In this document: piece by piece, positions 1 through 54,638 of the stretch
Layout of the letters: every line of letters begins with the position of its first letter
How positions within the stretch are numbered: the first letter of the stretch is position 1
Source of the DNA: Patescibacteria group bacterium
GTDB taxonomy: Bacteria; Patescibacteriota; Patescibacteriia; Magasanikbacterales; UBA922
Direction of reading: 5' to 3'
Length of the DNA stretch: 64,000 bases
Assembly (NCBI GenBank): GCA_041658785.1
Contig: JBAZZL010000003.1
Span: 639-64,638 of the forward strand
Notes under the pieces: model-generated
What the model was told of the DNA's origin: nothing
The model's input: only the letters and a program-made list of their open reading frames with translations
Databases searched by the model: none
Position numbers and translations under genes: made by a program

Positions 1-705
1 TTCCCGGGCCGCCGCCCTCTGCGCTTCGTGGGCGCGGACGACCGCCTGCCGGATAAGCTCGCCGCCGGCCCCCCACTCCTTGGATCCAGACTTCTCCTGG
101 AGAATCCGGAAAACCATGGAGCGCAGGTTGCGGGCCCCGCGTTTGGCGAACTGGTTCTCCTCCGGCAGGGGGAACTTCTCAATCCACCGGCCAATGAAGT
201 CCCCGACCACCCACCGAGCGCGGCTGGGCTTGCGCAGAAGCCTGCCCGGCCGGATTCCTCCGGCGAGCGGGTCCGCAAGCCTGGCGTCGACCCAGGCCTG
301 GAGCTCGGCCATGTCGGCCGGCTCACGCTCCCTCCGCGACTTGGCCTCCGCCTCCTGAGACAAGCGGAGCCGACGCTGCTCCTCCTGCCTCTCCCGCTCC
401 TTTTCCCTGCCGGCTGCGGTCAGCTCGGAGAGCGTCACCGTCGCGGACAGGGCGACACCCTGAAAGTTAGCCGACATCCTAAACTGCCGGTGAAGACAGA
501 GGCCGTCCTCCGACAGTCTGGATTCTTCCCCGCCAACACGGACATCAACTTCTGTGGACGGCGTCCAACCGTCCGTTGCTTCGAACAAGAACTTTCCGTT
601 AAACCCCGCCTTGGCGGGGCGAAAGTCCACCAACTTCCCCTCACGGTTGAGGTGAGCGGTGCCCACCGCGCCGTTCTGGGATGTCCAAATCTTCTTGATC
701 GCCAT
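1..705 (-). CDS. hypothetical protein, 5' partial: the ORF runs off the window start. Translation begins MAIKKIWTSQNGAVGTAHLNREGKLVDF... and the C-terminal half is a charged coiled coil
   Basis: Minus-strand frame is open from the ATG at 705 to position 1 with no stop. A strong SD, GGAGGAGAAACC, precedes the ATG. GC3-rich codon usage fits this high-GC block. The ORF track omitted it because it has no in-window stop. Confidence 0.5.
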   Translation of the reverse strand, partial: MAIKKIWTSQNGAVGTAHLNREGKLVDFRPAKAGFNGKFLFEATDGWTPSTEVDVRVGGEESRLSEDGLCLHRQFRMSANFQGVALSATVTLSELTAAGREKERERQEEQRRLRLSQEAEAKSRREREPADMAELQAWVDARLADPLAGGIRPGRLLRKPSRARWVVGDFIGRWIEKFPLPEENQFAKRGARNLRSMVFRILQEKSGSKEWGAGGELIRQAVVRAHEAQRAAARE

Positions 706-854
706 GGTTTCTCCTCCTGTTTCCCACACTTCATGGCAAAAGCGCGGGAGTTGTTTTCTCATCCCGTCCCAACAACATCGTTGAGCCGGGAAGTTGAAGC
801 CCGAACCGTTAACCTCCAGTTTGACGGTTCGGGTAAAGGTGGCGCCGGCGCGCG

Positions 855-1274
855 TCAGAATCTGTCGAGCACATTGCCGAGATCTTTGACCTCGAGCATG
901 GCCCGCAAATCTTCGGGCAGGCGCGCGATCGCCTTCTTCGTGCCGGTGGACATGGCATCCACATGCACGCGAGTGAATCCGCGCTCGCGGCACCGCTCTA
1001 CGGTCGCCCGCATAAGCTCTGTGCCGTAACCCAAGCCGCGAGCGCCCGGAACAACATAGAGCCCGACGATCGCGGGCGTGCCATTTGATCCTTGCTCGCC
1101 CTGCGGCGCGATGGTCGCGGCGCCATAGACGCAGCCGTTCTCCTCAATCAGCACCGCTTCGTCGCAGCACGAGAAGCGGTCGCCGACAAAGAGAATAGCC
1201 GCAACCGGACAGATCGGCCGGCTGTGCAACCACTCCGAAAACTCGCTCATTGAAACGATGCGGGTATCCCTCAT
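855..1274 (-). CDS. GNAT family N-acetyltransferase
   Basis: 139 aa. Acetyl-CoA-binding motifs (VVPGARGLGYGTELM, RERGFTRVHVD). GGAGGAGG RBS directly upstream of the ATG. Confidence 0.8.
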   Translation of the reverse strand: MRDTRIVSMSEFSEWLHSRPICPVAAILFVGDRFSCCDEAVLIEENGCVYGAATIAPQGEQGSNGTPAIVGLYVVPGARGLGYGTELMRATVERCRERGFTRVHVDAMSTGTKKAIARLPEDLRAMLEVKDLGNVLDRF

Positions 1275-1487
1275 CGCCTCCTCCTTTCTAAAGTTGAAAG
1301 AACCACTCGCGCCGCCGAGCCCATCTCGGTTCGCGGATTTTTCCCCTGAAACTTTCGCTTCAGGGGCTTCCGGAAAATCAAAGTATTTTTGATTCTCTGG
1401 AAGATTTGAAATAATTTACGGAGTGATCCCGACTTAGTCGGGACCAGTTTGTCACGTGCTTCGTGTCGCGTAATCATGTCGCGTAAT

Positions 1488-1516
1488 TTGACGGCTAGTT
1501 TTTCCCCTGTTATACT
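1488..1516 (+). promoter_or_regulatory. sigma70-type promoter TTGACG-N17-TATACT with a TTTTCCCCTGT spacer box, ATG 8 nt downstream
   Basis: Consensus hexamers read directly. The same spacer box recurs at 3277, 6883 and 7590. Confidence 0.5.
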
Positions 1517-1524
1517 GGCAAGGT

Positions 1525-1740
1525 ATGACTACCAAACAATTAACTAAACAACTCAACCGGATCGGACAATTAGAAAAGGAACTACAATTGCTTAAAATCG
1601 TTGTTTTTAAAGCTCTGCCCAAACAAACCGGACGGACTTCTTCTGCTCACGCGGAAAGGACTCTGCTAAAAGCCGCGAAAGACGTCCGGAATGATCTTTG
1701 GCAATCACGCTATGCCAAAAAAGTTGCGCGTGTTTCTTGA
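1525..1740 (+). CDS. small putative antitoxin, partner of the PIN toxin
   Basis: 71 aa basic, helical ORF. It overlaps the downstream PIN gene by ~29 nt and sits behind a consensus promoter. Confidence 0.45.
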   Translation: MTTKQLTKQLNRIGQLEKELQLLKIVVFKALPKQTGRTSSAHAERTLLKAAKDVRNDLWQSRYAKKVARVS

Positions 1741-2146
1741 TACCAGCGCGATTTTAGCTGGGCTTAACTCGCCAAATGGAGCCGCCGGCATAATTCTGGC
1801 GGCTTGTTTTGTTCATGAAGCTATTCCGGTTATCTCCCCTCAAGTCGTTGAGGAGGCCGAACGGGTAATCGCTCAAAAATTTCCAAGGTTATTCGCCGGC
1901 TGGATCATTTTTTTGCTTATACCGCCGCAAATCGCTTCTCCACCTACTCTGGCTCAAGTAAGAAAGGCCTATCGTGTCCTGCCGACAAACGACGCGCCTA
2001 TTCTCGCCGCCGCTCTCAACACCCGCCCTGACGCTCTGGTAACTTGGAACACGCGCGACTTCATGCGTCCGGCAGTGGTGGAGGCATCGCCTTTTCCCAT
2101 TTTGCGGCCGGGTGAATTTCTGCGCCTGCTCCAACGCGGCAACTAA
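1712..2146 (+). CDS. PIN-domain ribonuclease (VapC-like toxin)
   Basis: Acidic PIN residues are present: VFLDTSAI, NDAPILAAAL, TWNTRDF. Typical toxin-antitoxin overlap with the upstream small ORF. Confidence 0.7.
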   Translation: MPKKLRVFLDTSAILAGLNSPNGAAGIILAACFVHEAIPVISPQVVEEAERVIAQKFPRLFAGWIIFLLIPPQIASPPTLAQVRKAYRVLPTNDAPILAAALNTRPDALVTWNTRDFMRPAVVEASPFPILRPGEFLRLLQRGN

Positions 2147-2492
2147 TCCCGCGGCAACCGGCAAAATAACAGACACTATCGGTATTTTTTGTTTTTTTGG
2201 AATGTAATGAACGTTGTCACCAGTCACAAGACACATGCCACGCATCATCCCTGCGATTTGTAAGCGCGGCTCACAGCTTACAACGCAAGCAAGCGCCGGT
2301 CATGGCGCTTGCGCTGGGCTCCGATTGAGCCGCGCAACCACCACGAAGGCGGCCAACGGAACCTCGCGAGAGTCCCCTTGACCGATGGTGGTTGCTTTGT
2401 TTAATTGTTTAATTGTTTAATTGTTACATTGTCAAATTGTTACATTGTTATTATGTTGTCGGTGTTGCAGTGTTGCAGCGCTGTCGTCTTAT

Positions 2493-3155
2493 TTACTTCA
2501 CCGTTACCCGTTTGTCCCAATATTCAACTGATTTTTTATACTCCTCGGGGTCAAGCGGCACGCCGCTGCCGCCGTATTCTTTGCCCAGAGCGTTACGGAG
2601 CATTGTTGTCGGATCAATCGGTTCTGCTTCCGGCGTGGGCAGGCCCATAATTTTCACAATCCCCCAATCGGCCGCGGGCACATCCGCCTCGCCGCTCGCT
2701 TCCGCTTCTTTTCGCAGTTGATCCTGGCGGTAAAGAACGATTCCCAAATAATTTGCCGCAGGCGTCTCCACTCCTTCGGCCCAGCGCGTCAAAACTGGCA
2801 GTTCATTTTCACGGCGCGCCTCAAAACCGTTCCGAATTTCCCCCCGATTTTCGTCCGTGATTTCCACGGAACCCACCCGCGCGTCGGTAAAATTTTCCAC
2901 AAAGAGCAGGCGGCAAAAATCGGCATATCCGGGCTTTACTGTTGCCCCGGCCAAGCGCGCCGCCAGCTCCTGTTCAAACTCTTCCGGCGTATGGCTGGAA
3001 ATTTTCGTGCCGGCAAAATCTTTTTTAAAATGCCGCTTGACGAATTCAGTCATGCCGGCGGACGAAATCGTCAACCCCTCTTTTTGCTCGGCGTCAGAAT
3101 GTTCCGCGTTCACGGACGGCCGCTCGCCGGTATTTTCGTTGGTCATAGGTGTCAT
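2493..3155 (-). CDS. hypothetical protein
   Basis: 220 aa ORF, acidic, balanced composition, no recognisable motif. It lies between repeat-rich intergenic regions. Confidence 0.45.
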   Translation of the reverse strand: MTPMTNENTGERPSVNAEHSDAEQKEGLTISSAGMTEFVKRHFKKDFAGTKISSHTPEEFEQELAARLAGATVKPGYADFCRLLFVENFTDARVGSVEITDENRGEIRNGFEARRENELPVLTRWAEGVETPAANYLGIVLYRQDQLRKEAEASGEADVPAADWGIVKIMGLPTPEAEPIDPTTMLRNALGKEYGGSGVPLDPEEYKKSVEYWDKRVTVK

Positions 3156-3276
3156 AGATAATGTGAGTTAAGAATAAATACGATAATTATATCATGTAAC
3201 GTGTAGCGTGTAACTTGTAACGTGGCGCACATTTTTAAAAATAGAATATCCACATTCCGCAACGGGAAAATGATAT

Positions 3277-3305
3277 TTGACAATCATTTTTCCCCCTGTT
3301 ATACT
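3277..3305 (+). promoter_or_regulatory. consensus promoter TTGACA-N17-TATACT (TTTTCCCCCTGT box) for paralog A, leaderless or near-leaderless
   Basis: Exact -35 and -10 hexamers. The ATG lies 9 nt after the -10. Confidence 0.55.
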
Positions 3306-3313
3306 CATTTTAT

Positions 3314-3595
3314 ATGAACCAAACATCAGACCCGACAATCAAAGACGTTATGGAGGTCGTTGAATTCATCCGTGACAATGCCGCGACTAAGGATGACGTC
3401 CAGGCAGTTAGAGCCGAGCTACAAAAAGAAATCCAAGACGCTAAAAATGAAACGATCGGCCATATTGATGGTTTTGTCAAACTGCACAAAGACATGGACA
3501 CTGAAATCGCCGCACTCAAATCATCTTACCAGCGGCACGAAGAGCAAATCAGCCAAATCGTCCGCCACCTCGGCCTCCAATTGTCTAATGGCTGA
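3314..3595 (+). CDS. small coiled-coil protein, paralog A of a DUF1640-like ATKDD(L/I) repeat family
   Basis: 93 aa. The N terminus MNQTSDPTIKDV and the C terminus SQIVRHLGLQLS are shared with the ORFs at 6921 and 7627. Identical promoter and start context. Confidence 0.7.
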   Translation: MNQTSDPTIKDVMEVVEFIRDNAATKDDVQAVRAELQKEIQDAKNETIGHIDGFVKLHKDMDTEIAALKSSYQRHEEQISQIVRHLGLQLSNG

Positions 3596-3612
3596 TCTGA
3601 TTTACCGCCAGT

Positions 3613-3640
3613 AATCCCGATGCTATCGGGTTTTTTGTTT
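3613..3640 (+). terminator. intrinsic terminator AATCCCGA-TGCTA-TCGGG followed by TTTTTTGTTTTTTG
   Basis: Hairpin followed by a T-run. A TGTAATGAAC tail motif is also seen after 2200 and 8070. Confidence 0.6.
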
Positions 3641-3695
3641 TTTGTAATGAACACAATTATTTTTTTCAATCGATAACTTTCGCAACGAACTTTGG

Positions 3696-3744
3696 GCGGT
3701 AACCCGCACCTCATCCCCTGCCCTTCTCCTAAAAGGAGAAGGGA
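3696..3744 (+). repeat. fragment (left half) of the MITE-like structured element
   Basis: CGGTAACCCGCACCTCATCCCCTGCCC...hairpin matches the copies at 31411 and 43958. Confidence 0.45.
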
Positions 3745-3839
3745 GCAATCCAACGATCTTTTGATTTTCCGATCTTTTGATCTTCAATCACCCCATCACC
3801 CCATCCTCCTCCACAATCCCTGAATTATCAGAAACTTTG

Positions 3840-4140
3840 GAAGGTGGCGAAGCGAGTGAAGCTTCGCCGCCAAGTGCGTCCAACGAGGGATTAGGAAATC
3901 CCGAATTGTTGGACTTCCCCGCCATGCAAATAGGCGGGGCGTTTGGTGGGAAGGCGGATCGGGAATTAGGTCGTCCGATCCGCCGCGTACTGCGGTGGCC
4001 CGCTTTTTGGGCTTTGGCCGGTACGCGCGGCCTGACGTCTCATCCTCTTACTGCTCCGTCGGAACGGAGCAGGGGACGTCCGCGATCGACGCGGCCCCAC
4101 CTGCCCCACCCTCGTAATGGGTGAAGATCAGGTGGCACCG
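3840..4140. repeat. GC-rich array of at least six perfect stem-loops; candidate structured RNA or a REP-like cluster
   Basis: Perfect stems at 3846-3868, 3887-3902, 3917-3939, 3953-3984 (10 bp), 4051-4072 (9 bp) and 4097-4136 (nested). Confidence 0.4.
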
Positions 4141-4440
4141 CCCATCCGCGGCGTCCCGAAAGAGAATGAGATCGTTCGGCCCGAAATCATCCACGAGGAC
4201 GACCTCGAACCGGCCCGATTCTCCGCCGGTCGTCTCACCGACCTCCACTGGCGGGCGATTTGCCAACCAGATGGCGCCGATGAGAACTGCCAACACCAGG
4301 CCAAAGAGAATGGCCCATATTGGCTCCCGGCGGAGAAGGGACAGAAGGGATCTCATCCCTTTGTCCTTTCCGCCAATCCTTATCGTGTTCCCGATTTTCA
4401 TCGGAACGGGACAAACCCGCCGGATTTCAGCAAGGGACAC
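4048..4440 (-). CDS. hypothetical small membrane protein; the start is uncertain, with M29 at 4356 as an alternative
   Basis: One clear TM helix (IWAILFGLVLAVLIGAIWLA). It is the most protein-like frame in a GC-rich block where the overlapping plus-strand ORFs look spurious. Confidence 0.3.
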   Translation of the reverse strand: MSLAEIRRVCPVPMKIGNTIRIGGKDKGMRSLLSLLRREPIWAILFGLVLAVLIGAIWLANRPPVEVGETTGGESGRFEVVLVDDFGPNDLILFRDAADGRCHLIFTHYEGGAGGAASIADVPCSVPTEQ

Positions 4441-5050
4441 CCTGCCTTATACCGGTTTTTTGGATTGGCGGATTCTCAAAGAGCGCGCTTCGCAAGCCCA
4501 GTATGGCTTTCGTTTCCTGGCACGCGCCAAGAAAACCTGCGAAGAAACACCTCTTCATTCACCCGACGCGCGATGCACGCATCACGACCCAAGTCCGCGT
4601 GTTTCGCATATCGTGTCAATGAAAAGGTGTTTGTTTTTTTATTTGAAAGAACGGAACACGAATCCTTCACACGAATTTACACAAATTATATTCGTGTGAA
4701 TTCGTGAAAAAATTCGTGTTTCCCCTTCAACCCTCAATCTTTTAATCAGCGCAATCAATGATTCAGAGTCCAAGGGGATAGATGAATGGCGTGTGCAGTG
4801 CTGTTCATCTCATCCCGAATGCGCAACTGATTCGGCAGTTGCCACCTACACGCGTAGATAACCCATCAGCGTGATCTGGGGGCAAGACAATTTATTTAAC
4901 GCCGTCTGCCGGGGCGCGCGGGTTCGCGTAGGTTAGCGTACCTACAGGAACCCGGTGGTGTACCTCACGGTGCACCTCCTTCTTGGGGTTAATCTACCTC
5001 TTGTTCCTCACTACCCCTTGAGTGAGGAGAGGTTGTCGCGGAATGCGACA

Positions 5051-5959
5051 CTACTTCGCGAACCGCCTGCATATCTCCAGCACCTGCTCGGGGATGAGCT
5101 TCGACTGGCTGCCGTCCGGGTTGCGCGGGCTACCGCCGACGGAGCTGGCGCCGCCCCAGTTCGCCGCGTGCGACTGTTCCGGGTTGACCTCGATCTCCTT
5201 CAGGGCGAGCTGCCCCAGGATCGTGTCCTTCCGGTAGTCGTCGAGCGACGTGGGCGGGCGCTTGGTGGCGCCGGGGCCGACCGCGAGCGGCACGAGGTCC
5301 GACCGCTTGGCGACGGTGTACATGAGCGTTCCGTTGGGCGCGTCCGTGAAGAGCACGCCCGCGAGGAAGCCCTGGTTGTACACGTCGTCGAAGCCGATCT
5401 TCGTCTCGACCGCCTGCCAGCAGGTCTTCGGCGACCACGCGTAGCCCTTCGACGGGCGCTCCAGACGCGCGGGCGGGGCCTGCCACTCGCCGTTGGCGTA
5501 CTGGGTCACCTTCACGAGGAAGGTTTCCAGCATAGCCACGGTCTGTGGCTCCTTGCTCCCGTAAGCCGGGGCCAGCTCGCGGTGGATGTCGTGCGGGGCG
5601 AAGATCGGGCCGTGCGCGTCGGTGAGGCCAACGCGCTCGACGAGCTCCTTCACCTTCTCCTCGTTCACGCGCTCCGGGTTGGCGAGCAACCAGACCGAGA
5701 GGCTCGTGTCCGCGTCCAGGTCGTTGATGTAGACCTGGGTGTCCTCGTCCACCACGAGCCCGAGGCGGATCGCCGTCGCCACCTGCTGGCACGTGGCCAG
5801 GGTGACGAGGCGGGTGCACGCCGCATGGTGATCAAACGAGAACTTGCGGTTCACGGCGTCGATCTGCGGGCCCTGGACGGCTCCGTCGAGCGCAATGCTG
5901 TTAGCGGGAAGGTTCGCGAAATCGACAACCTGACCGAACACGAAATTGATACGCGCCAT
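5051..5959 (-). CDS. hypothetical protein in a high-GC block
   Basis: ~302 aa starting at MARINFVFGQ with RBS GAGGAGGAAGAA. GC3-rich. The frames at 4955..6007(+) and 5130..5819(-) are shadows of it. Confidence 0.55.
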   Translation of the reverse strand: MARINFVFGQVVDFANLPANSIALDGAVQGPQIDAVNRKFSFDHHAACTRLVTLATCQQVATAIRLGLVVDEDTQVYINDLDADTSLSVWLLANPERVNEEKVKELVERVGLTDAHGPIFAPHDIHRELAPAYGSKEPQTVAMLETFLVKVTQYANGEWQAPPARLERPSKGYAWSPKTCWQAVETKIGFDDVYNQGFLAGVLFTDAPNGTLMYTVAKRSDLVPLAVGPGATKRPPTSLDDYRKDTILGQLALKEIEVNPEQSHAANWGGASSVGGSPRNPDGSQSKLIPEQVLEICRRFAK

Positions 5960-6479
5960 TTCTTCCTCCTCTCGGAGACTCCTGCGGACAAACCCACCCA
6001 TGGCTAGGTGGGAGGAGTGCCCTTGCGGGCTTGTTTCTGCTTGTCCGCTTAGCCATATCCCATCCCCCGCAAAAGCGAAGAAATTTTTCCCCACACCATG
6101 CGGGGAGGGATATTTTGGAAAAGGCATCTCGGGTCGGCTTCTGCCCCGAGTTACCTACCCTAAATCACTCAACACGATTTACACACTTCACAAAACATCT
6201 GCATTCGCATTTGTTTCGTGCTGTATGTCTCGTGCCTCGTGAAAAAAGGATTCGATCTGTCCGCCCTCTCGAGCGCCACGGAACTTCCCCGCGGTATTAC
6301 TGCCCAGAGCCAGACGACAATTCAGCTTGCGCCGAACTTCGCGAGGCATTTTTATTTTTACAACGTCATTGGTTGGACGTTGGTTTTATTAAATTTTATA
6401 GAACAAGAGCCTGTCTGCGGCTCTCGCGAAACTTTTTTCTCAAAAAATCTTGCGAGAACCCCGGAACACGAATTTTTCC

Positions 6480-6580
6480 GCCATCGCGGAGTATGGAATT
6501 GAACGCAGCGAAGCGAAGTGAAATTTCATTCGCCGCGGCGTAAATGGCGGAATTTCACTTCGTTCAATTCCGCACTCCAC
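6480..6580. repeat. long imperfect inverted repeat (~25-bp arms, GGAATTGAACG..AAGTGAAATT) around a CGCCGCGGCG core
   Basis: Arms at 6487-6518 and 6552-6576 are reverse complements apart from a 9-nt insertion. Confidence 0.4.
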
Positions 6581-6624
6581 AACAATAAGACAATACGGAA
6601 GAATAACATCGGAATGTCAATCTT

Positions 6625-6653
6625 TTGACAAGCGCCATGCTCTTTGATATGCT
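6625..6653 (+). promoter_or_regulatory. promoter TTGACA-N17-TATGCT, 8 nt before the ATG at 6662
   Basis: Hexamers read directly. Confidence 0.45.
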
Positions 6654-6661
6654 ATTGTTAT

Positions 6662-6886
6662 ATGACTCACGCCCAGGCCGCAACGCTTACCAAACACGTT
6701 CAAACGTTGAATCGCGAAGTCGCTCTTTTGCGTTCTTTTATGATTGGCATGACGCATGATCCGGAAGGCGATTACCGTCCGTCGTTTGTCAAAACAATTC
6801 GCAAACGTACTATATCATCTGAATCGCGCCAGCGCTTTCTTGGAAAAGAGGCGTTCCTTGCCGAGCTCAAAAAGAGAGCAATTTGA
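6662..6886 (+). CDS. small hypothetical protein (74 aa)
   Basis: ORF with a leaderless-type promoter. Its stop codon TGA lies inside the -35 box of the paralog B promoter. Confidence 0.4.
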   Translation: MTHAQAATLTKHVQTLNREVALLRSFMIGMTHDPEGDYRPSFVKTIRKRTISSESRQRFLGKEAFLAELKKRAI

Positions 6887-6912
6887 CAAACCAATTTCAC
6901 GCCTGTTATACT
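6883..6912 (+). promoter_or_regulatory. promoter TTGACA-N18-TATACT for paralog B
   Basis: Same TATACTCATTTTATATG start context as at 3300. Confidence 0.5.
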
Positions 6913-6920
6913 CATTTTAT

Positions 6921-7277
6921 ATGAACCAAACATCGGACCCGACAATCAAAGATGTCATGGAGGTCGTAGAATTCATCCGCGATAATGCCGCGACCAAAGA
7001 CGATATTAAAAATTTCGCGACCAAAGATGATCTTAAGAACCTCGCGACCAAGGACGACTTAAAGAACTTCGCGACCAAAGACGATCTGCAAAACTTTGCC
7101 ACCAGGGACGATCTTAGAAATGCTAAAGATGAAATGATCGGCCATATTGATGGTTTCATTAAACTGCACAAGGACATGGACACTGAAATCGCCGCGCTCA
7201 AATCATCTTACCAGCGGCACGAAGATCAAATCAGCCAAATCGTCCGCCACCTCGGTCTCCAATTGTCTGCCGCCTAA
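6921..7277 (+). CDS. small coiled-coil protein, paralog B, with a 5x ATKDDLKNF tandem repeat expansion
   Basis: The N and C termini match paralog A. The repeats read ATKDDIKNFATKDDLKNLATKDDLKNFATKDDLQNFATRDDLRN. Confidence 0.7.
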   Translation: MNQTSDPTIKDVMEVVEFIRDNAATKDDIKNFATKDDLKNLATKDDLKNFATKDDLQNFATRDDLRNAKDEMIGHIDGFIKLHKDMDTEIAALKSSYQRHEDQISQIVRHLGLQLSAA

Positions 7278-7292
7278 GTCCGACAAACCCAT

Positions 7293-7478
7293 ATGGATAG
7301 AAACTCTGCCAAACCCACAATCGCTCCTCACGTCCCCTACCATCTTACGCCAGAAGGAATTGCGCTGACTCACCGAAAATTTGAGCTGGAAAAGCAAATG
7401 CTTTTGCGCGATTATGCTAAGCTGGAAAGAAAAATCAAGCAGATTGCGGACCATCTTGGTCTAAAGTTCAAGTCCTAA
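7293..7478 (+). CDS. degenerate C-terminal fragment of the same paralog family (61 aa)
   Basis: The C terminus KQIADHLGLKF resembles the SQIVRHLGLQL of paralogs A-C. Confidence 0.3.
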   Translation: MDRNSAKPTIAPHVPYHLTPEGIALTHRKFELEKQMLLRDYAKLERKIKQIADHLGLKFKS

Positions 7479-7589
7479 CTTTTCTAACACTTTGATTGAT
7501 AGAAAATACTTTTTTCACCACCGTTTCTATTGAACCGAAATTCAGCACAAACTGTGATGAAATTTTAACGGAAGAATAATATAATAATA

Positions 7590-7619
7590 TTGACAATCAA
7601 TTTTCCCCCTGTTATACTC
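7590..7619 (+). promoter_or_regulatory. promoter TTGACA-N18-TATACT for paralog C
   Basis: Near-identical to the 3277 cassette. Confidence 0.55.
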
Positions 7620-7626
7620 GTTTTAT

Positions 7627-8007
7627 ATGAACCAGACATCAGACCCGACAATCAAAGACGTACTGCAAGAGCTGAAAGAAAATAGAGAAATAATCGAGTT
7701 CATCCGCGACAACGCCGCGACCAAAGATGACATCGCCGACATCCGCAGAGAGATGGCGACCAAAGATGACATCGCCGACATCCGCAGAGAGATGGCGACC
7801 AAAGATGATTTGCGATTGGTGAAGACAGAACTGCGGCAGGAAATTCAGGATGCCAAAAATGAAATGCTTACTCATGTAGATGCTTTCGTGGGCTTGTACC
7901 AAAAACACGAACAAGAACTCGCCGCCGTAGTGGCTCGCGTCAATCGTTTTGAAGAAAAATTAAACGCCGTCATCAAACACCTCGGCCTCCAGCTTGAGAC
8001 CGCGTAA
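7627..8007 (+). CDS. small coiled-coil protein, paralog C, with the repeat ATKDDIADIRREM in three copies (the third partial)
   Basis: 126 aa. Conserved MNQTSDPTIKDV...IKHLGLQL termini with a different repeat array. Confidence 0.7.
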   Translation: MNQTSDPTIKDVLQELKENREIIEFIRDNAATKDDIADIRREMATKDDIADIRREMATKDDLRLVKTELRQEIQDAKNEMLTHVDAFVGLYQKHEQELAAVVARVNRFEEKLNAVIKHLGLQLETA

Positions 8008-8120
8008 ACGACTCGCGCGCTCCATGCTTCTCCGCTCCAAACCCTGGCCATTCGCCGGGTTTTTTATTTTGTAATGAACAATCTCACTAGTCACCAGCCG
8101 AATACCACGAATCACTTAAA

Positions 8121-8190
8121 AGTGTCTCGTGATATGTGCCTTGTGTCTCGTGACATGTCTCGTGCTGCGTGTCTCGTGCCTCGTGATAAA
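8121..8190 (+). repeat. 5x degenerate direct repeat GTCTCGTG
   Basis: Read directly. A related tract lies at 6222-6245. Confidence 0.5.
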
Positions 8191-9320
8191 TACCGACTGC
8201 CTTTCTCTCCACCACCTTGCGGCGGTCAAGAGAAGGCGCACTCGGTACCACATTCTCTGGTGAAAATGTGGAGCGGTCGCGAGGGAGTTTTGACCGAATC
8301 GCTTCAGCCAAAGCTATCAACCTCCACCGCCGTTCCCCGATTTAATCGGAGAAAAAAACCAGATGTGTATCTCACATCGCCGATAGGACTCTCTCCTATT
8401 TTTCATACGGGCAATGCGGGATCAAACACTTGAATTTAATGAACCTATAGTCAGATATATTCCACTCTTGCTCGCAACCGGATTAACAACCGACAAGCGT
8501 TTGTCAATCCAAGTCTATTGAGCAGGGATTATTCCGACAGAACAGGTGGCATGGCTTTTACCCGTCCGAGTGTCGCTCGCGCGGCAGGTGGACAGATATT
8601 TGCTTGTCAGAGGATGTCCGCAGGCATTGGGCAATAAATATTACTTTTCCCCGCCAATGGACACTGTGATCTCTCTCCATGTCACCCCATCTATCGGAAC
8701 AAAAAATCCCTCTTTGGGGAAAGGGGGTTTGATTTCAGATTTCAGATTGCAGATTTATTTCACAAATCAATCTCCAATCTCTTGATCTTTTGATCTTTAG
8801 ATCTTTTGATCTTCAATCGTTCATTTTGCCCTCTCTCCAAGGCAATTTTTGTTATAAGTTGTATTGAACGGTCTCTTTTGCTTTTTGATTTTAACAGAAC
8901 AGTATAACATCATTTGGGGTAATTGTCAAGAGTTGTTTGGAAATTGGAAATTAGTAATTGGTAATTTGTTTTATTTGAGCTAAATTTTGTCATAAAAAAT
9001 ATGTCTATTCTTTACTTGACATATTTATTTGGCTATGTTATACTATGTTTATGATTAGCCAAGAAAATTGTATCTCCATCTTAAATTATTTCATGGGGTT
9101 TCAATGAAAAAAAACGTATATTTGGCTAAAATAACTGTTGTAATTAGTAAATGGTAAACAGTAATTGATAATTGTTCCATTGCCCCATTGTCCTATTGTC
9201 AATTACTAATTACAATTTACAAATTACCCAATCGCCCAATTACCAATTTCTATTTACCATTTACCCTCAAATTAGAACCATCCGTAAATCAGGATTATCC
9301 GTCATCCGTAAGTTAAACCT

Positions 9321-10157
9321 ATGCCCGCCATCAATACATTAACCAACTACGGCTTTGAGCCATCTGAAGCCGAAATCTATCAGATATTAGTAGAAAACGG
9401 CGAAATGTCCGTTCCCCGGATATTAGAAAAAACCGCGCTTTCCAGAGCTAGTATTTATGATTCTCTAACCACGCTCATGGCCAAAGATCTGCTGGATTAT
9501 CGCAAGGACGGCCGAACCGCCCTGTACAAACCAACACACCCGAACAAACTGTTTGGCTTAATTGAACAAAAAAAACGCGAGACCGCGCTTTTGAATCAAG
9601 AAATGGAAGAGACGATTAGAGGATTCACCGGCGCTTTTAATCTGTCGCAGAATCGGCCGGGGGTGAGGTTTTTTGAAGGCGAAGAGGGAATAAAAGAAGT
9701 AACTTTTGATTCTTTGAAATCCAACGGAGATATATTAACTTATCTAGACGTGGACGCGACCCAGAAGTACATCGCGGAAATGAATAAAGAATACGTGGCC
9801 GAAAGAGTAAGATTGAATATTAAAAAAAGAATGATTGTGCCGGACACTCCCCAAACCAGAGAGCGGTATAAAAATTATTCTCCTCTGCTGGAAGTCCGGT
9901 TGATGCCGCCGAACATTAAACCGTTTAGGACTATCACGCAAATTTACAATAACACTGTTTCTTTTTCCACTTTGAATGAACAAAAAATGATCGGCGTGAT
10001 CATTGAGGATGAACAGATTGCCGAACTGCACCGTTCGGTGTTTGAGTTTGTCTGGCAGTCCCTCCCGGATATTCAGTTGATTGAAAACAAAAAATCTACG
10101 CCGCCTCCTTCAATTCCTCCGCCGCCTCTTCAGCCGCCGCCGGCCGCAACATCCTAA
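9321..10157 (+). CDS. TrmB family transcriptional regulator with a Pro-rich tail
   Basis: N-terminal wHTH (EAEIYQILVENGEMSVPRILEKTALSRASIYDSLTTLMAKDLL) typical of TrmB. Confidence 0.7.
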   Translation: MPAINTLTNYGFEPSEAEIYQILVENGEMSVPRILEKTALSRASIYDSLTTLMAKDLLDYRKDGRTALYKPTHPNKLFGLIEQKKRETALLNQEMEETIRGFTGAFNLSQNRPGVRFFEGEEGIKEVTFDSLKSNGDILTYLDVDATQKYIAEMNKEYVAERVRLNIKKRMIVPDTPQTRERYKNYSPLLEVRLMPPNIKPFRTITQIYNNTVSFSTLNEQKMIGVIIEDEQIAELHRSVFEFVWQSLPDIQLIENKKSTPPPSIPPPPLQPPPAATS

Positions 10158-24079: not shown

Positions 24080-25222
24080 TCACGCCGATACATGAAAATA
24101 ACACACATCCCCATCCTTCACCTCATACTCTTTCCCCACCAACTGCAACACTCCTTTCTCCTTCGCGCCGGCCCAGCCGCCGCACGCGACAAAATCCGGC
24201 CACGGCACAACGTCGGCTTTGATATAACCCTTGATAAAATCCGTATGAATCACGCCCGCGGCCCCCGGCCCCTTGGTTCCCCATTTAACCGTCCACGCCC
24301 GCGTCTCCGGCTCGCCGGAAGTGAAGTAAGTAACTAAATCCAACAATTTATAACCGGCGACAATTATCTTATCCAACCCAGACTGCTCCAGCCCGCTCGC
24401 TTTCAGATACTCCCTCGCCTCCGCCGCCGTCAAATCCGCCAACTCCGCTTCCAACTTCGCCGAGATATTCACACCCACTTCGCTGTCTGTCAAAAAATTA
24501 GTTTCCTGCTTGTTTTCCCGCCAAAGCCCCGTAGCGAACGGGGTCCCGCTTCGTTGCGATGACGGGACCCCGCTCGCTGCGGGGCCAGTTTCTTCGCAGT
24601 TAAAAACATACATCATCGGCTTCATCGTCAAAAGATGCAAGTCCTTTATTGTCAGCGCTTCCTCATCGGTGTAATCCAACGAACGCGCCGACTTGCCCGA
24701 TTCCAAATGCGTGTTCAGTTTTTCCAACAATTCAATCTCCGCTTTGGTCTGTTTGTCAACGAGCCCCTTGGCCTTTTTTTTGGTATTCGCAAGGCGATTT
24801 TCCACTGTCTGCCAATCGGCCAAAACTAACTCCAAGTTGATCACTTCCGCGTCTTCTTTGGGATCAACTTTATTATGAACGTGCATCACGTTAGCATCTT
24901 CAAACGCACGCACGACTTGAACAATCGCGTCCACTTCTCTGATGTGCGAAAGAAATTTGTTGCCCAGCCCCTCGCCTTCCGAAGCGCCTTTGACTAAGCC
25001 GGCGATGTCAACAAATTTAATTGCCGTAGGGATTATTTTTTTTGATTTTGAAACATCGGCCAGTTTTTGCAGGCGTTCATCAGGAACTTCAACAATACCA
25101 ATGTTCGGTTCAATGGTGCAAAAAGGATAATTTTGCGCGTCGGCCTGCTTGCTGCGGGTGAGGGCGTTAAACAGGGTTGACTTGCCGACATTGGGGAGAC
25201 CGACGATTCCGAGGGAGAGCAT
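24080..25222 (-). CDS. ychF: ribosome-binding ATPase YchF
   Basis: G1 GLPNVGKST, a coiled-coil domain and the C-terminal TGS domain ([14 protein letters not shown]...GDV). Confidence 0.85.
24527..24587. repeat. GC-rich 61-bp imperfect palindrome (23-nt arms, 2 mismatches) embedded in-frame in ychF
   Basis: GCCCCGTAGCGAACGGGGTCCCG / CGGGACCCCGCTCGCTGCGGGGC. It encodes ...[20 protein letters not shown]... Confidence 0.6.
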
Positions 25223-25452
25223 ATCATGATGCACGATACACGTATCACGAGTCATACACGAATTGTCCAACTGATTTGTGATGTGTTTCTAGTGACTTGT
25301 GGCGTAGTTTGTGATGAGGACGCCATTATTATGAAGAAATGGGGATTAAAAGTCAACCGCGGGTGTCATTTTGTAAATATCATCTCGATTTATTTGAAAA
25401 ACTTTGACTCTCTCTTTCTTTTTAATTATAATTGAAGACGAAGGAGGTGCAC

Positions 25453-35516: not shown

Positions 35517-35520
35517 AGAA

Positions 35521-35612
35521 GTTGTAAGTTGTAAGTTGTAAGTTGTAAGTTGTAAGTTGTAAGTTGTAAGTTGTAAGTTGTAAGTTGTAAGTTGTAAGTT
35601 GTAAAGTTGCGA
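35521..35612. repeat. (TTGTAAG)n tandem heptamer array, ~12 units
   Basis: Read directly. It is the inverted counterpart of 35974-36018. Confidence 0.9.
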
Positions 35613-35613
35613 G

Positions 35614-35973
35614 TTACTTTTGAACCTTCATCCAACCGTATAGCAGGCGGCCGCATTCTTCCAGATTTTTAAATAGGCCATCATATTCTTTGAGAGACAT
35701 GTAATCTAGGTCTTTTGCCAATAGCAAATGATATTTTAATTCTTCCAGCGACGCAAGGGCGATGTTATAAAATCGCAATGAATCACCTACACACTTTCTT
35801 TTGAAACCTTCCGCAATATTTGCTGGAAATGAAATGGCTGCGCGGCACGATTGGTCAACCAATCTAAACCTTTCATCAGAAGGATATTTTTTTGTAACCA
35901 GGTATACTTTTAGGACCATCGCGTGTCCTTTTTGCCAAGCCAATATTTCTTTAAATGTTCTTATCCCTGCCAT
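35614..35973 (-). CDS. four-helix-bundle protein (23S rRNA intervening-sequence protein family)
   Basis: 119 aa. ...ISFPANIAEGFKR... is typical of PF05635. Confidence 0.7.
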   Translation of the reverse strand: MAGIRTFKEILAWQKGHAMVLKVYLVTKKYPSDERFRLVDQSCRAAISFPANIAEGFKRKCVGDSLRFYNIALASLEELKYHLLLAKDLDYMSLKEYDGLFKNLEECGRLLYGWMKVQK

Positions 35974-36018
35974 AAGCTTACAACTTTACAACTTACAACT
36001 TTACAACTTACAACCCAC
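35974..36018. repeat. (CTTACAA / CTTTACAA)n array, reverse complement of the 35521 array
   Basis: Read directly; together the two arrays are long inverted arms around the 4HB gene. Confidence 0.85.
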
Positions 36019-47130: not shown

Positions 47131-48504
47131 TTATACTGACGTTTCTTGTTGATAAGATGTGGCGATCAGCAAAGCGGGTAAGAGCCAAAATAATATTGCC
47201 AAATCATTTTTTATATATGGACTGTCAACTAAGCCAGTAACAACAATCGCGGTCATACTCGCGAGTAAAAAGATTGAAAGATTAAAAGATTGAAAGCTTG
47301 ACGTATTATCTTTAATCTTACAATCTTTTAATCTTTTAATCTTTAATACCCCAATTATTCCAGTTTTGAAGAACCAGACCATTATTAACAGAAAACCCAC
47401 AAGTCCGGTTAAACCCAAACCCACCCACATCGTTAAGAAAATATTATGCGGATGATGAAAGATTTCAATGCCCTCGCCGTTGACCGCAGTGTGATAGGGA
47501 ATGATTTTTTCTTTATAAGACGCCAGACCGGCGCCGAAGATTGGGTTGTCTTTTAGAAATTGCCAGGTTTCCTGATAAATAGAGAGGCGGATTTGGCCGG
47601 AGCGGTCTTGGAGAGTTAATTCTTTTTTGATGGGATTGTAAGCGGGGAGAAGGGCAAGGGTAAGGAGGCCGGAAGCCAGAAGGATGATGGTGATTAGCCG
47701 CGTTTTTTTATAAAAAAATAATAAGAGCGCGATTCCCGCGGCGAGGCCGGCGAGGCCGCCGGTGGATTTGGCGAAAATAATTGCCAGTGGTGATGAAATT
47801 AGAAATAAGAAACTAGAAACTAGGGTCAGCCAGTTTCCAGTTTCCAGTTTCCAGTTTCTTTTTTTCAACCTCTGAAAAGATTGGATTAGCAAATATAACG
47901 CAATCGGCACAATCGGCGCAAGAAACAATCCTACCGCATTCGGAAATCCATACCACCCAGTAACGCGGAAGGCGTTGCCGTTTTCCCAAAATGCGTAAGG
48001 AACCATGAAACCCGTGAAATGTTGATAGATGGCGAGAAGCGAAGTTGCCAGTCCGGATAGAATGAGAGCAAATAGGATTAAAGATTGAAGATTGAAGATT
48101 AAAGATTTTGTGGTTGATTGTTGATTGTTGATGGTGGTAATTAGGATAATGAAGATTAGAAACGGTTCAATGTAAAACGCTTTCCATTCCCCAGCCGCCG
48201 CTCGGACGTCAACCGAAGTGAATATTGAAGCGGTGGCGGCTACCAGGAAAATGAATGACCCGATGAATAAAATTTTATGTCGTAAAATCTGAAATCTGAA
48301 ATTTGAAATCTGAAATCTTTTGACAATCCAAACGGCGATGATAATCCAAATCATCGCTTCCAGCAGTGTCGTCGGCAACGGTCCAATATTGAAGCGGATT
48401 AAATATGTCGGCAATAGGAGAAATAAAAAAAACAGGCTGAGGCGGAAACGCAACCACGTGATTAAAACGAAGAATAATGAGTAAAGAATAATGAGTAGCG
48501 GCAT
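47131..48504 (-). CDS. O-antigen ligase / polymerase family membrane protein (Wzy_C domain)
   Basis: >10 TM helices; periplasmic loop with ...IFGAGLASY. The gene contains four 7-8-bp tandem-repeat tracts. Confidence 0.65.
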   Translation of the reverse strand: MPLLIILYSLFFVLITWLRFRLSLFFLFLLLPTYLIRFNIGPLPTTLLEAMIWIIIAVWIVKRFQISNFRFQILRHKILFIGSFIFLVAATASIFTSVDVRAAAGEWKAFYIEPFLIFIILITTINNQQSTTKSLIFNLQSLILFALILSGLATSLLAIYQHFTGFMVPYAFWENGNAFRVTGWYGFPNAVGLFLAPIVPIALYLLIQSFQRLKKRNWKLETGNWLTLVSSFLFLISSPLAIIFAKSTGGLAGLAAGIALLLFFYKKTRLITIILLASGLLTLALLPAYNPIKKELTLQDRSGQIRLSIYQETWQFLKDNPIFGAGLASYKEKIIPYHTAVNGEGIEIFHHPHNIFLTMWVGLGLTGLVGFLLIMVWFFKTGIIGVLKIKRLKDCKIKDNTSSFQSFNLSIFLLASMTAIVVTGLVDSPYIKNDLAILFWLLPALLIATSYQQETSV

Positions 48505-48564
48505 ATTGCTTATTGTTTATCGCTTAGTTTCAATTCAGCGATAGGCGATAGGCGATATTTTCAA

Positions 48565-54592: not shown

Positions 54593-54638
54593 ACCACAAA
54601 TAACAAATAACAAATAACAAATACAATTTTACCAATTA

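What the first reader, a model, noticed from the sequence alone, without database searches (positions are those of the whole stretch)
3270..8010. Multicopy cassette: near-identical consensus promoter, leaderless start, and a small coiled-coil protein with variable tandem repeats
Three full genes (3314, 6921, 7627) and one C-terminal fragment (7293) share the element TTGACA-N17/18-TATACTC(A/G)TTTTAT-ATGAACCA(A/G)ACATC. They also share the N terminus MNQTSDPTIKDV and the C terminus SQIV(R/K)HLGLQL, but each carries a different internal repeat array: none, 5x ATKDDLKNF, or ATKDDIADIRREM. The PIN antitoxin operon at 1525 uses the same TTTTCCCCTGTTATACT promoter core. Repeat-number and repeat-type variation between neighbouring paralogs suggests a rapidly diversifying locus such as a contingency or surface/adaptor family, or a conserved regulon box.
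Basis: seen in the sequence. Interest (0 to 1): 0.7.

Follow-up and report, generated by a model that had tools for sequence, protein, structure and literature searches.

The report
Small repeat-bearing coiled-coil gene family
Three neighbouring genes in a Patescibacteria genome encode small soluble proteins whose middle is a variable array of the known 'ATKDD' beta-layer coiled-coil repeat; they belong to a widespread family that no database curates, whose function is unknown, and whose genes in many genomes sit directly behind a strong promoter with no leader.

Summary
Genes A (3314-3595), B (6921-7277) and C (7627-8007) are paralogs. Each sits 8 nt behind a near-consensus TTGACA-N17/18-TGnTATACT promoter. 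ORF D (7293-7478) keeps about 10 N-terminal residues and the C-terminal module, and lacks the promoter.

The repeats are the beta-layer motif [aliphatic]-A-T-K-x-[DE] of alpha/beta coiled coils. Gene B matches PDB 5APZ (Tcar0761) at E=3e-12. B carries five 9-residue nonads. C carries 13-residue units (hexad plus heptad).

An exhaustive profile search finds 728 cluster representatives, mostly Patescibacteria. They share a conserved N cap, a hypervariable repeat rod (periods 9, 11, 13, 7) and a conserved C cap. No Pfam or NCBIfam family covers them.

Two other assemblies are 99.7-100% identical to the window but lack one 39-bp unit in gene C.

The promoter-next-to-ATG layout recurs in homologs from other genomes (10/29 versus 8/219 control ORFs, p about 2e-6). 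This suggests it is selected rather than carried along by duplication.

There is no signal peptide or transmembrane segment, and the repeat units are in frame, so a surface or contingency role is unsupported. With only four sites, a regulon box cannot be established.

Most likely these are cytoplasmic trimeric rods of adjustable length. Their cellular role remains unknown.

The parts
3277..3305 (+). Promoter of gene A: TTGACA, 17-nt spacer ending in TGT (extended -10), TATACT. The -10 hexamer ends 8 nt before the ATG.
   Evidence: 11 of 12 consensus matches, TG present
3314..3595 (+). Gene A, 93 aa: N cap, a single AATKDD beta-layer, C cap, no repeat array.
   Evidence: The AF2 model has helix 7-22, a break at A23-A24-T25 and helix 26-86, with pLDDT 90.
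3616..3652 (+). Terminator-like hairpin and T-run of gene A, followed by the invariant TGTAATGAAC.
   Evidence: (family D9)
6883..6912 (+). Promoter of gene B: TTGACA, 18-nt diverged spacer, TATACT. The -35 hexamer overlaps the stop codon of the 74-aa ORF at 6662-6886.
6921..7277 (+). Gene B, 118 aa: the same caps as A, with five 9-residue nonads.
   Evidence: PDB 5APZ, E=3.2e-12. The AF2 model breaks the helix at each xFAT with period 9.
6990..7124 (+). Nonad array of gene B: ATKDDIKNF, ATKDDLKNL, ATKDDLKNF, ATKDDLQNF, ATRDDLRNA (5 x 27 nt).
   Evidence: In the ATKDD core there are 15 synonymous against 4 non-synonymous codon differences between units.
7293..7478 (+). ORF D, 61 aa: a rod-less relative (about 10 N-terminal residues plus the C cap). 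It has no promoter of its own, starts 15 nt after B's stop and is basic (pI 9.8).
7590..7618 (+). Promoter of gene C. It is 38/40 identical to that of A from the -35 hexamer to the ATG.
7627..8007 (+). Gene C, 126 aa: a divergent paralog (C cap 43-67% DNA identity to A) with 13-residue repeats.
7717..7833 (+). 13-residue (hexad plus heptad) array of gene C: two DNA-identical 39-nt units ATKDDIADIRREM and a diverged third, ATKDDLRLVKTEL. One unit is absent in assemblies L002 and L003.
8043..8079 (+). Terminator-like hairpin and T-run of gene C, followed by TGTAATGAAC.
1488..2212 (+). Unrelated cargo in the same frame. The promoter at 1488-1516 has the same TTTTTCCCCTGTTATACT core and lies 8 nt before the ATG. 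It is followed by a 71-aa ORF (1525-1740), a PIN_3 toxin (1691/1715-2146), and a T-run plus TGTAATGAAC (2203-2212).
   Evidence: (families D6, D10)

Best explanation
Genes A, B and C (and the rod-less remnant D) are a local expansion of an uncurated family of small, acidic, soluble proteins found mainly in Patescibacteria.

Each protein has three parts:
- A conserved N-terminal helix that ends in a beta-layer motif (..DILExVxFIKDNAATK[DE]D).
- A central rod made of a variable number of coiled-coil repeat units.
- A conserved C-terminal coiled-coil cap (HxDGFxxLHQKLDTELxAL..KYxRLE...HLxLxL).

The repeat units are those of the alpha/beta coiled coil described by Hartmann et al. 2016. They are 9-residue nonads (gene B) and 6+7-residue units (gene C), each starting with [aliphatic]-A-T-K-x-[DE]. 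In a homotrimer each such motif forms a three-residue beta-layer that rotates the chains by 120 degrees.

Inferred, not shown: the proteins are cytoplasmic homotrimeric rods. Their two conserved ends would be the working surfaces, and the repeat array would set their length. On that reading, paralogs and alleles are length variants of one adaptor or spacer.

Repeat number changes by unequal recombination or slippage between units. The two DNA-identical 39-bp units of C, and the allele with one unit fewer, show this happening now. B's array is old and is kept by selection on the protein.

Each gene is a complete transcription unit that was duplicated from the -35 hexamer to the terminator. The near-consensus extended -10 promoter ends 8 nt before the ATG, so the mRNA should start at or within 2 nt of the start codon (leaderless). 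The same layout recurs in homologs from other genomes, so it is a selected trait of the family.
For: Family and architecture:
- The exhaustive profile search gives 728 cluster representatives at E<=1e-3 and 190 at E<=1e-10, nearly all 85-190 aa and matched end to end.
- The alignment shows two conserved caps around an unalignable repeat region.
- Of 215 proteins fetched, 91 have internal repeats. Periods are 9 (38 proteins), 11 (11), 13 (10), 7, 18 and 22, with 2 to 11 copies.

Beta-layer identity:
- Gene B matches PDB 5APZ (Tcar0761 nonads MATKDDIAN) at E=3.2e-12.
- The motif and the 9- and 6-residue logic are described in PMC4786415.
- AF2 breaks the helix exactly at AAT in A and at each xFAT in B.

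Soluble and acidic.

Polymorphism: L002 is 100% and L003 99.7-99.99% identical to the window over 15-18 kb, apart from one 39-bp unit in gene C.

Selection:
- A against B shows 10 synonymous and 0 non-synonymous changes in the first 28 codons, while the -35 hexamer and the 19 nt from CCTGT to the ATG are identical.
- A and C are 93% identical from -37 to +36 but only 43-67% identical in the C cap.

Leaderless layout conserved: 10 of 29 homologs in other genomes have a promoter with 9 or more of 12 consensus matches whose -10 ends 8-9 nt before the ATG. This compares with 8 of 219 control ORFs in the same loci (p=2.4e-6). With a control that allows generous start-codon choice, p=5.9e-6.
Against: - No oligomeric state, structure, transcript start or partner has been measured. 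The AF2 models are monomers, with pLDDT only 65-70 in B's repeats.
- The cellular function is unknown. Gene neighbourhoods differ between lineages.
- The C cap has no informative match in the PDB, and the fold search is empty.
- The 39-bp difference could be an assembler artefact at a perfect tandem repeat. L002 may be a re-assembly of the same reads.
- Only about one third of homologs show the promoter-ATG layout, and control ORF starts are less certain than family starts.
- Other genes in this genome also look leaderless (50138 and others), so part of the trait belongs to the organism.
Confidence: 0.6

Rival explanations
1. A plain recent duplication: the shared promoter and start are passengers of gene duplication with no selected role, and the repeat differences are neutral.
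For: Homology between A, B and C starts at the -35 hexamer and ends at the stop codon or terminator, as expected for duplicated transcription units. All copies lie within 5 kb, in an island with an IS integrase just upstream and foreign high-GC genes.
Against: The promoter elements and the -10-to-ATG segment are identical between A and B, although 10 of the first 28 codons carry synonymous changes. A and C keep 93% identity in the promoter and first 12 codons but 43-67% in the C cap. The same layout is enriched in homologs from unrelated genomes. Repeat variability is family-wide.
Confidence: 0.15
2. A contingency or surface-variation locus: the repeat number switches a surface or adhesin-like protein between antigenic or length states in the population.
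For: There is a copy-number difference in gene C between near-identical assemblies. Beta-layer repeats are common in trimeric autotransporter adhesin stalks and phage fibres (PMC4786415). Tandem paralogs have different arrays.
Against: There is no signal peptide, transmembrane segment or anchor in A-D, and only 2 of 149 family representatives have a hydrophobic stretch. The units are 27 and 39 nt, so there is no frame switching. B's array has diverged at the DNA level. No match was found in phage, plasmid or IMG/VR collections.
Confidence: 0.08
3. A regulon: the TTTTTCCCC(C)TGT spacer shared by the promoters of A, C and the PIN operon is an operator for one regulator (for example the antitoxin or the TrmB-like protein at 9321), which co-regulates the coiled-coil genes with the toxin-antitoxin module.
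For: Nine non-consensus bases sit at the same position in three promoters. The A and C spacers are 16/17 identical despite divergent coding regions. A TrmB-family gene lies downstream of the family gene in the window and in L007, and within 6 kb in L009.
Against: There are only three sites, and B (the closest paralog of A) has lost the spacer motif. The motif is not over-represented in the window. It has no dyad symmetry. The three units also share their 3' flanks, which points to common descent of the whole frame rather than an operator. TrmB-family genes recur in several of the fetched Patescibacteria loci.
Confidence: 0.1
4. Part of a toxin-antitoxin or defence island: the small proteins act as antitoxin-like or accessory components of the neighbouring PIN module or the orphan 74-aa gene.
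For: The genes lie next to a PIN_3 operon with the same promoter and terminator frame, and B starts inside the end of a small antitoxin-like ORF.
Against: There are no PADLOC hits of note. Most homologs elsewhere are single genes among housekeeping genes (dnaK operon, tsaD, recA, smc). No recurrent partner gene is found beyond synteny within one clade.
Confidence: 0.05

Closest known systems
Tcar0761-type alpha/beta coiled-coil proteins (Thermosinus carboxydivorans; PDB 5APZ; Hartmann et al., eLife 2016, PMC4786415; grouped there with the DUF3782 coiled coils)
   Same: The beta-layer motif [aliphatic]-A-T-K-[polar]-[DE] repeated as 9-residue nonads. Gene B aligns to the crystallised segment at E=3.2e-12. 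Both are flanked by heptad coiled coil and both lack an enzymatic domain. A Tcar0761-like protein (P0209) aligns to the family profile just after the repeats with 95% hhalign probability.
   Different: The N and C caps are different and are conserved in their own right. With the C cap alone, the match to P0209 vanishes. The Pfam DUF3782 model does not hit A, B or C. These proteins are much shorter (85-190 aa), with 1-5 units here against 14 in Tcar0761. Gene C uses 13-residue hexad-plus-heptad units as a regular array.
DUF1640 / CCDC90-like family (MCUR1, CCDC90B and prokaryotic relatives; Pfam PF07798; PDB 6H9L is a weak hit)
   Same: An ATK[DE][DE] beta-layer at the start of a trimeric coiled-coil stalk (PMC4786415). 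Three of 38 family members touch the Pfam model at up to E=4e-7. 6H9L aligns over ATKEDIE repeats.
   Different: A, B and C give no hit to PF07798 at E<=1. They have no C-terminal transmembrane segment. The match of other members is confined to the repeats.
Mycoplasma pneumoniae DUF16 proteins (MPN010, PDB 2BA2)
   Same: Small soluble proteins containing beta-layers (PMC4786415). That they form a multicopy paralog family of unknown function in a reduced genome is my own recollection and was not checked here.
   Different: No sequence match was detected in any search here. DUF16 has its own conserved core and hendecad stalk. No membership test was run.
Leaderless genes such as lambda cI and many mycobacterial toxin-antitoxin operons (general knowledge, not tested here)
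   Same: The -10 hexamer lies 6-9 nt upstream of the ATG with no Shine-Dalgarno sequence. These are small regulatory or accessory proteins.
   Different: Here the layout is conserved across a protein family in different genomes. No transcript mapping exists for any member.

Membership tests
Alpha/beta coiled coil (beta-layer) proteins, sensu Hartmann et al. 2016 | Motif [aliphatic]-A-T-K-[polar]-[DE] at each discontinuity | tested here: met
   A has AATKDD. B has (A/F/L)AT(K/R)DD five times. C has (A/M)ATKDD three times. The consensus is taken from PMC4786415.
Alpha/beta coiled coil (beta-layer) proteins, sensu Hartmann et al. 2016 | Insertions of 2 or 6 residues into the heptad pattern, giving 9-residue nonads or 6-residue hexads | tested here: met
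   B has period 9 (27 nt). C has period 13, which is 6+7 (39 nt). The family-wide periods of 9, 13, 18 and 22 dominate, alongside 7 and 11.
Alpha/beta coiled coil (beta-layer) proteins, sensu Hartmann et al. 2016 | Three residues in beta conformation interrupting the helix | tested here: inconclusive
   AF2 monomer models break the helix at AAT (A, pLDDT 90) and at each xFAT (B, pLDDT 65-70). No trimer model or experiment is available.
Alpha/beta coiled coil (beta-layer) proteins, sensu Hartmann et al. 2016 | Homotrimeric assembly | not testable with these tools
   Only monomer prediction is available. [quoted passage not shown]
Pfam DUF1640 / CCDC90-like (PF07798) | Score at or above the Pfam gathering threshold | tested here: not met
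   No hit for A, B, C or D at E<=1. Only 3 of 38 relatives hit, through their repeats.
Pfam DUF1640 / CCDC90-like (PF07798) | C-terminal transmembrane segment after the stalk | tested here: not met
   The maximum 19-residue Kyte-Doolittle score is 0.05-0.63.
Pfam DUF3782 (coiled coil of PD-(D/E)XK endonucleases; Tcar0761 is filed there) | Match to the Pfam model | tested here: not met
   Not listed for A, B or C at E<=1, nor among the 25 families most often hit by the 38 relatives.
   No hit at E<=1. PHROGs returns only weak matches, mostly to families of unknown function.
Contingency (phase-variable) locus | A simple-sequence repeat whose length change shifts the reading frame or the promoter spacing | tested here: not met
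   The units are 27 and 39 nt, so they stay in frame. The promoters contain no repeat tract.
Leaderless gene | Transcript starts at or within a few nt of the start codon | not testable with these tools
   Only the geometry is available: the -10 ends 8 nt before the ATG, there is no Shine-Dalgarno sequence, and no upstream in-frame start exists for A.

The most novel reading that the evidence does not exclude
The family is an obligatorily leaderless, highly expressed set of trimeric 'ruler' proteins in Patescibacteria. Rod length would be tuned by adding or removing beta-layer units, both between paralogs and within populations. The conserved promoter-ATG junction would tie their synthesis to a particular translation mode, such as 70S or stress-type initiation. 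That would make this the first protein family in which leaderless expression is itself a conserved family character and in which alpha/beta coiled-coil length is under active diversification.
Probability: 0.2. Interest if true: 0.6.

Novelty: new variant of a known kind. Interest (0 to 1): 0.4.

Why it matters
It adds a large natural family to a structural principle first described in 2016, the beta-layer or alpha/beta coiled coil. The family has about 730 cluster representatives, no Pfam or NCBIfam model, and is found mostly in Patescibacteria.

Neighbouring paralogs use both nonad arrays and hexad-plus-heptad arrays, and one array differs in copy number between near-identical genomes. This offers ready-made length variants for studying how such rods are built and what their length is for.

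The recurrent placement of a strong promoter directly on the start codon across genomes is a testable case of selection on leaderless expression, in a lineage that largely lacks Shine-Dalgarno sequences.

If the function stays unknown, the value is limited to annotation and structural biology.

Tried and rejected
- Pfam, NCBIfam, PHROGs and PADLOC scans of A-D gave only weak coiled-coil noise.
- Rfam found only two tRNAs, both far away.
- The Foldseek search of the A model against the PDB was empty, as expected for a single long helix.
- The PDB profile search with the C cap alone found only designed trimeric Coil-Ser peptides.
- The 71-aa and 74-aa small ORFs (1525 and 6662) are not detectably related.
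- The exact promoter-plus-start element has no match in JGI metagenome contigs.
- Protein-guided scans of metagenome contigs found only distant relatives, so no further alleles of this organism were available.
- There were no relatives in IMG/VR, GenBank phages or PLSDB plasmids, so a phage or plasmid origin was set aside.
- No conserved partner gene was found. The only recurrent neighbour is smc (7 of 33 loci within about 4 kb, or 6 kb in L006; all but L006 are titled Uhrbacteria or Patescibacteria/Parcubacteria group), which I read as clade synteny.
- The 'Gammaproteobacteria' titles of some MAG records could not be verified from neighbouring genes.
- The spacer motif TTTTCCCCYTG is not over-represented in the window.
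- The first family alignment (A4) was too diverse for the search for related loci.

Full report
**1. What is in the sequence**

Positions 3270-8010 hold three complete ORFs on the + strand: A (3314-3595, 93 aa), B (6921-7277, 118 aa) and C (7627-8007, 126 aa). A 61-aa ORF, D (7293-7478), starts 15 nt after B's stop codon.

A strict scan for TTGAC-N16-18-TAYAHT-N4-12-ATG finds seven sites in the 64-kb window. Five of them lie in the first 9.1 kb. Four of these share the fuller pattern TTGAC(A/G)-N17/18-(C)CTGT-TATACT-N8-ATG: A, B, C and the operon at 1525. The 11-mer CCTGTTATACT occurs four times against 0.35 expected, and no shuffle reaches four.

The consensus scan rates the A, B and C promoters at 11 of 12 matches with an extended -10 TG. 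ORF D has no such element.

Tandem Repeats Finder gives two arrays:
- 6989-7120: period 27, 4.9 copies, 78% matches.
- 7717-7808: period 39, 2.4 copies, 100% matches.

D does not share the promoter or the start element. The C-terminal motif is ...HLGL(Q/K)(L/F) rather than SQIV(R/K)HLGLQL in all four.

**2. Extent and age of the duplication**

In a three-way alignment that includes the flanks, homology begins at the -35 hexamer. It ends at the stop codon for A against B, and continues into the terminator for A against C.

- From -37 to +36, all three genes are 93-97% identical.
- The C-terminal half is 97% identical between A and B, but only 43-67% between A and C.
- Between A and B, the first 28 codons carry 10 synonymous and 0 non-synonymous changes.
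- Over the same comparison, the -35 hexamer and the 19 nt from CCTGT to the ATG are identical.

The promoter and the -10-to-ATG segment are therefore better conserved than neighbouring synonymous sites. That argues for selection, or for gene conversion, acting on this module.

B's five units differ mainly by synonymous changes: 15 synonymous against 4 non-synonymous in the ATKDD core. This is an old array maintained at the protein level. C's two full units are identical at the DNA level, so that duplication is recent.

**3. What the repeats are**

Pfam and NCBIfam give no family for A-D. A search of PDB sequences with gene B hits 5APZ at E=3.2e-12. The aligned stretch is EFIRDNAATKDDIKNFATKDDLKN... 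against ITLMQANMATKDDLARMATKDDIAN....

5APZ is the Tcar0761 construct of Hartmann et al. (eLife 2016, PMC4786415). That paper shows the following:
- Inserting 2 or 6 residues into a heptad repeat produces 9-residue 'nonads' or 6-residue 'hexads'.
- In these, three residues adopt beta conformation and form a 'beta-layer' in a trimer.
- Repeated nonads form an alpha/beta coiled coil.
- The consensus in this group is [aliphatic]-A-T-K-[polar]-[DE].

Gene B's units (F/L-A-T-K-D-D-L-K-N) are nonads. Gene C's units (M-A-T-K-D-D + I-A-D-I-R-R-E) are a hexad plus a heptad. Gene A has a single AATKDD.

The AF2 monomer models agree with this reading:
- A: helix 7-22, a break at A23-A24-T25, helix 26-86, pLDDT 90.
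- B: short helices separated by breaks at each xFAT with period 9, then one long helix 62-111. pLDDT is 65-70 in the repeats.

**4. The family**

The word-index search found only five proteins. An exhaustive HMMER search with a profile found 728 cluster representatives at E<=1e-3 and 190 at E<=1e-10. Most are 85-190 aa and match from end to end.

The alignment of 38 members shows three parts:
- A conserved N cap: (T/A)(I/L)xD(I/V)LExVxF(I/L)(K/R)D(N/H)A(A/V)(T/S)K(E/D)D.
- An unalignable middle.
- A gapless conserved C cap: KxE(I/M)xxH(I/V)DGFxxLHQKLDTELxALxxKYxRLE....AxHLxLxL. It has one invariant Asp and near-invariant Phe, Leu and two Glu.

Of the 215 proteins fetched, 91 have clear internal repeats. 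Periods are 9 (38 proteins), 11 (11), 13 (10), 7 (6), 18 (5) and 22 (6), with 2 to 11 copies. All of these are coiled-coil or beta-layer periodicities. Repeat variability is thus a property of the whole family.

No Pfam family covers it. Three of 38 members touch CCDC90-like/DUF1640 through their repeats.

Weaker hits such as P0209, P0204 and P0215 share the nonads but have other C-terminal parts. hhalign links P0209 to the family just after the repeats with 95% probability.

All members examined are hydrophilic and acidic. A-D have no hydrophobic segment, and only 2 of 149 representatives have one.

**5. Distribution and neighbourhood**

Named records are Patescibacteria: Uhrbacteria, Magasanikbacteria, Parcubacteria and 'Patescibacteria group'. 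A few MAGs are titled 'uncultured Gammaproteobacteria', a label I could not verify.

Most loci hold one copy. L012 and L038 hold two. The window's 3+1 cluster is therefore unusual.

Neighbours differ between lineages:
- the hrcA-grpE-dnaK-dnaJ operon (divergent from the family gene)
- tsaD and trmB
- recA
- glycosyltransferases
- ribosomal protein genes

In seven loci the gene lies downstream of smc, within about 4 kb (about 3.7 kb beyond smc in L006). The gap is 28-50 nt in L017 and L020. Six of these records are titled Uhrbacteria or Patescibacteria/Parcubacteria group, and L006 is unnamed. I read this as clade synteny. No relatives appear in IMG/VR, GenBank phages or PLSDB plasmids.

The window itself is ordinary Patescibacteria chromosome, with trigger factor, FtsK, FtsH, UvrA, YchF and type IV pilus genes. 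Its first 9 kb is an island. It contains foreign high-GC blocks and a PIN_3 module. In the longer contig L002, an rve integrase lies just upstream.

**6. Repeat-length polymorphism**

Two ENA assemblies carry the same locus. L002 is 100% identical to the window over 18 kb. L003 is 99.7-99.99% identical over 15 kb. The only length difference is one 39-bp unit missing from gene C, giving a protein of 113 aa (P0004) instead of 126 aa. B's array is the same in all three assemblies.

This is what slippage or unequal exchange between identical units would produce. It could also be an assembler artefact at a perfect repeat, and only read mapping can decide.

**7. The promoter-start layout is a family trait**

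This genome has almost no Shine-Dalgarno sequences, and several other genes have a -10 hexamer 7-9 nt before the ATG. Part of the layout therefore belongs to the organism.

However, the same arrangement appears upstream of homologs in other genomes:
- L014: TTGACA-N17-TATACT-ACTTTTAT-ATG
- L016: TTGACA-N17-TATAAT-N9-ATG
- L021, L028, L013, L020, L018, L024 and others show it too.

I counted promoters with 9 or more of 12 consensus matches whose -10 hexamer ends 6-10 nt before the ATG. Among family genes outside the window, 10 of 29 qualify, against 8 of 219 other ORFs in the same loci (Fisher p=2.4e-6). When any ATG in the first 30 codons of a control ORF is allowed, the control count is 10 of 229 (p=5.9e-6). 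Among the family hits the distance is 8 nt in six cases and 9 nt in four.

'Leaderless' remains an inference from geometry.

**8. The PIN operon and the 'regulon box'**

The PIN_3 operon (a 71-aa ORF plus the toxin) shares with A and C a 31-nt promoter module at 74-81% identity. Beyond the consensus hexamers and the TGn, the shared part is TTTTTCCCC in the spacer.

It also shares the 3' end. A terminator T-run is followed by the invariant TGTAATGAAC at 2203, 3643 and 8070, and PIN against C shows 55 nt at 75% identity. Unrelated cargo therefore sits in a homologous promoter-terminator frame.

This fits common descent of the frame, for example cargo replacement by recombination. It fits an operator less well:
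- B has lost the spacer motif.
- The motif has no dyad symmetry.
- The motif is not over-represented in the window.

With so few sites, a regulon cannot be shown or excluded.

**9. Interpretation**

Shown:
- A paralog cluster of an uncurated but widespread family.
- Beta-layer repeat identity by sequence.
- Family-wide variability of the rod.
- Purifying selection on the caps and on the promoter-start segment.
- A copy-number difference between assemblies.
- Enrichment of the promoter-on-ATG layout in the family.

Inferred:
- Homotrimeric alpha/beta coiled-coil rods in the cytoplasm.
- The length of each rod is set by its repeat array.
- The conserved ends bind something.
- Expression is leaderless and probably high.

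Unknown: the cellular role. A surface or contingency reading is not supported. A recent passive duplication does not explain the conservation pattern.

**10. Novelty and score**

The structural principle is known (PMC4786415). This family is not curated: it has its own caps, it uses nonad and hexad-plus-heptad arrays in adjacent paralogs, and its leaderless layout is conserved across genomes. I rate it a new variant of a known kind. It is of moderate interest (0.4), mainly to coiled-coil structural biology and to the biology of Patescibacteria gene expression.

Noticed in passing
window 59656-60037; 35519-35609 and 35977-36014; 2397-2450; 3195-3224; 8122-8186; 8777-8813; 9171-9265; 47269-48557; 54596-54623: Intergenic regions throughout the window carry tandem arrays of 7-8-nt units, often directly upstream of start codons. 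Examples are about 54 copies of TGGAAAC at 59656-60037 and 13 copies of AAGTTGT at 35519-35609. The second array has its reverse complement on the other side of the 119-aa gene at 35614-35973. I know of no explanation.
   Followed up: partly
window 2203-2212, 3643-3652, 8070-8079: An invariant TGTAATGAAC follows the terminator T-run of the PIN operon, gene A and gene C. A 10-mer would be expected about 0.1 times in 128 kb by a uniform-frequency estimate, not a shuffle test. Together with the shared promoter, this places unrelated cargo in a homologous promoter-terminator frame.
   Followed up: partly
window 1-1300 and 3800-6130; L002 769-1857: Blocks of 55-66% GC sit inside a genome of about 43% GC. 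They carry minus-strand genes: a GNAT acetyltransferase (855-1274), a 302-aa protein with no family (5051-5959) and a small membrane-like ORF (4048-4356). An rve-family integrase lies just upstream of the window in the longer contig. This is probably horizontally acquired DNA.
   Followed up: partly
window 6625-6886: A 74-aa ORF (6662-6886) has its own TTGACA-N17-TATGCT-N8-ATG promoter. Its stop codon lies inside the -35 hexamer of gene B. It has no family match and is not detectably related to the 71-aa ORF that precedes the PIN toxin.
   Followed up: partly
window, all genes: Almost no gene has a Shine-Dalgarno sequence. Several others (50138+, 23611-, 37545-, 27751-) also have a -10-like hexamer 7-9 nt before the ATG. 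A YchF GTPase gene, reported to modulate leaderless translation in E. coli, lies at 24080-25270.
   Followed up: no
window 8901-8929 (-) and 9016-9044 (+): Two more 11-of-12 consensus promoters face away from each other, upstream of the TrmB-like regulator gene (9321-10157). The + one sits 6 nt before an 18-codon ORF. The - one has no obvious gene. They may drive small RNAs or peptides.
   Followed up: no
L017 1646-4249; L020 277-4315; L006, L018, L022, L023, L025: In seven loci (six titled Uhrbacteria or Patescibacteria/Parcubacteria group; L006 unnamed) the family gene lies downstream of smc, within about 4 kb. The gap is 28-50 nt in two of them. The smc of L020 has an intein-like insertion right after the P-loop (GPNGSGK-CLHGDSRVMLADG...).
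   Followed up: partly
window 2493-3155 (-): A DUF3228 protein (E=2e-57) lies divergently upstream of gene A. Its function is unknown.
   Followed up: no
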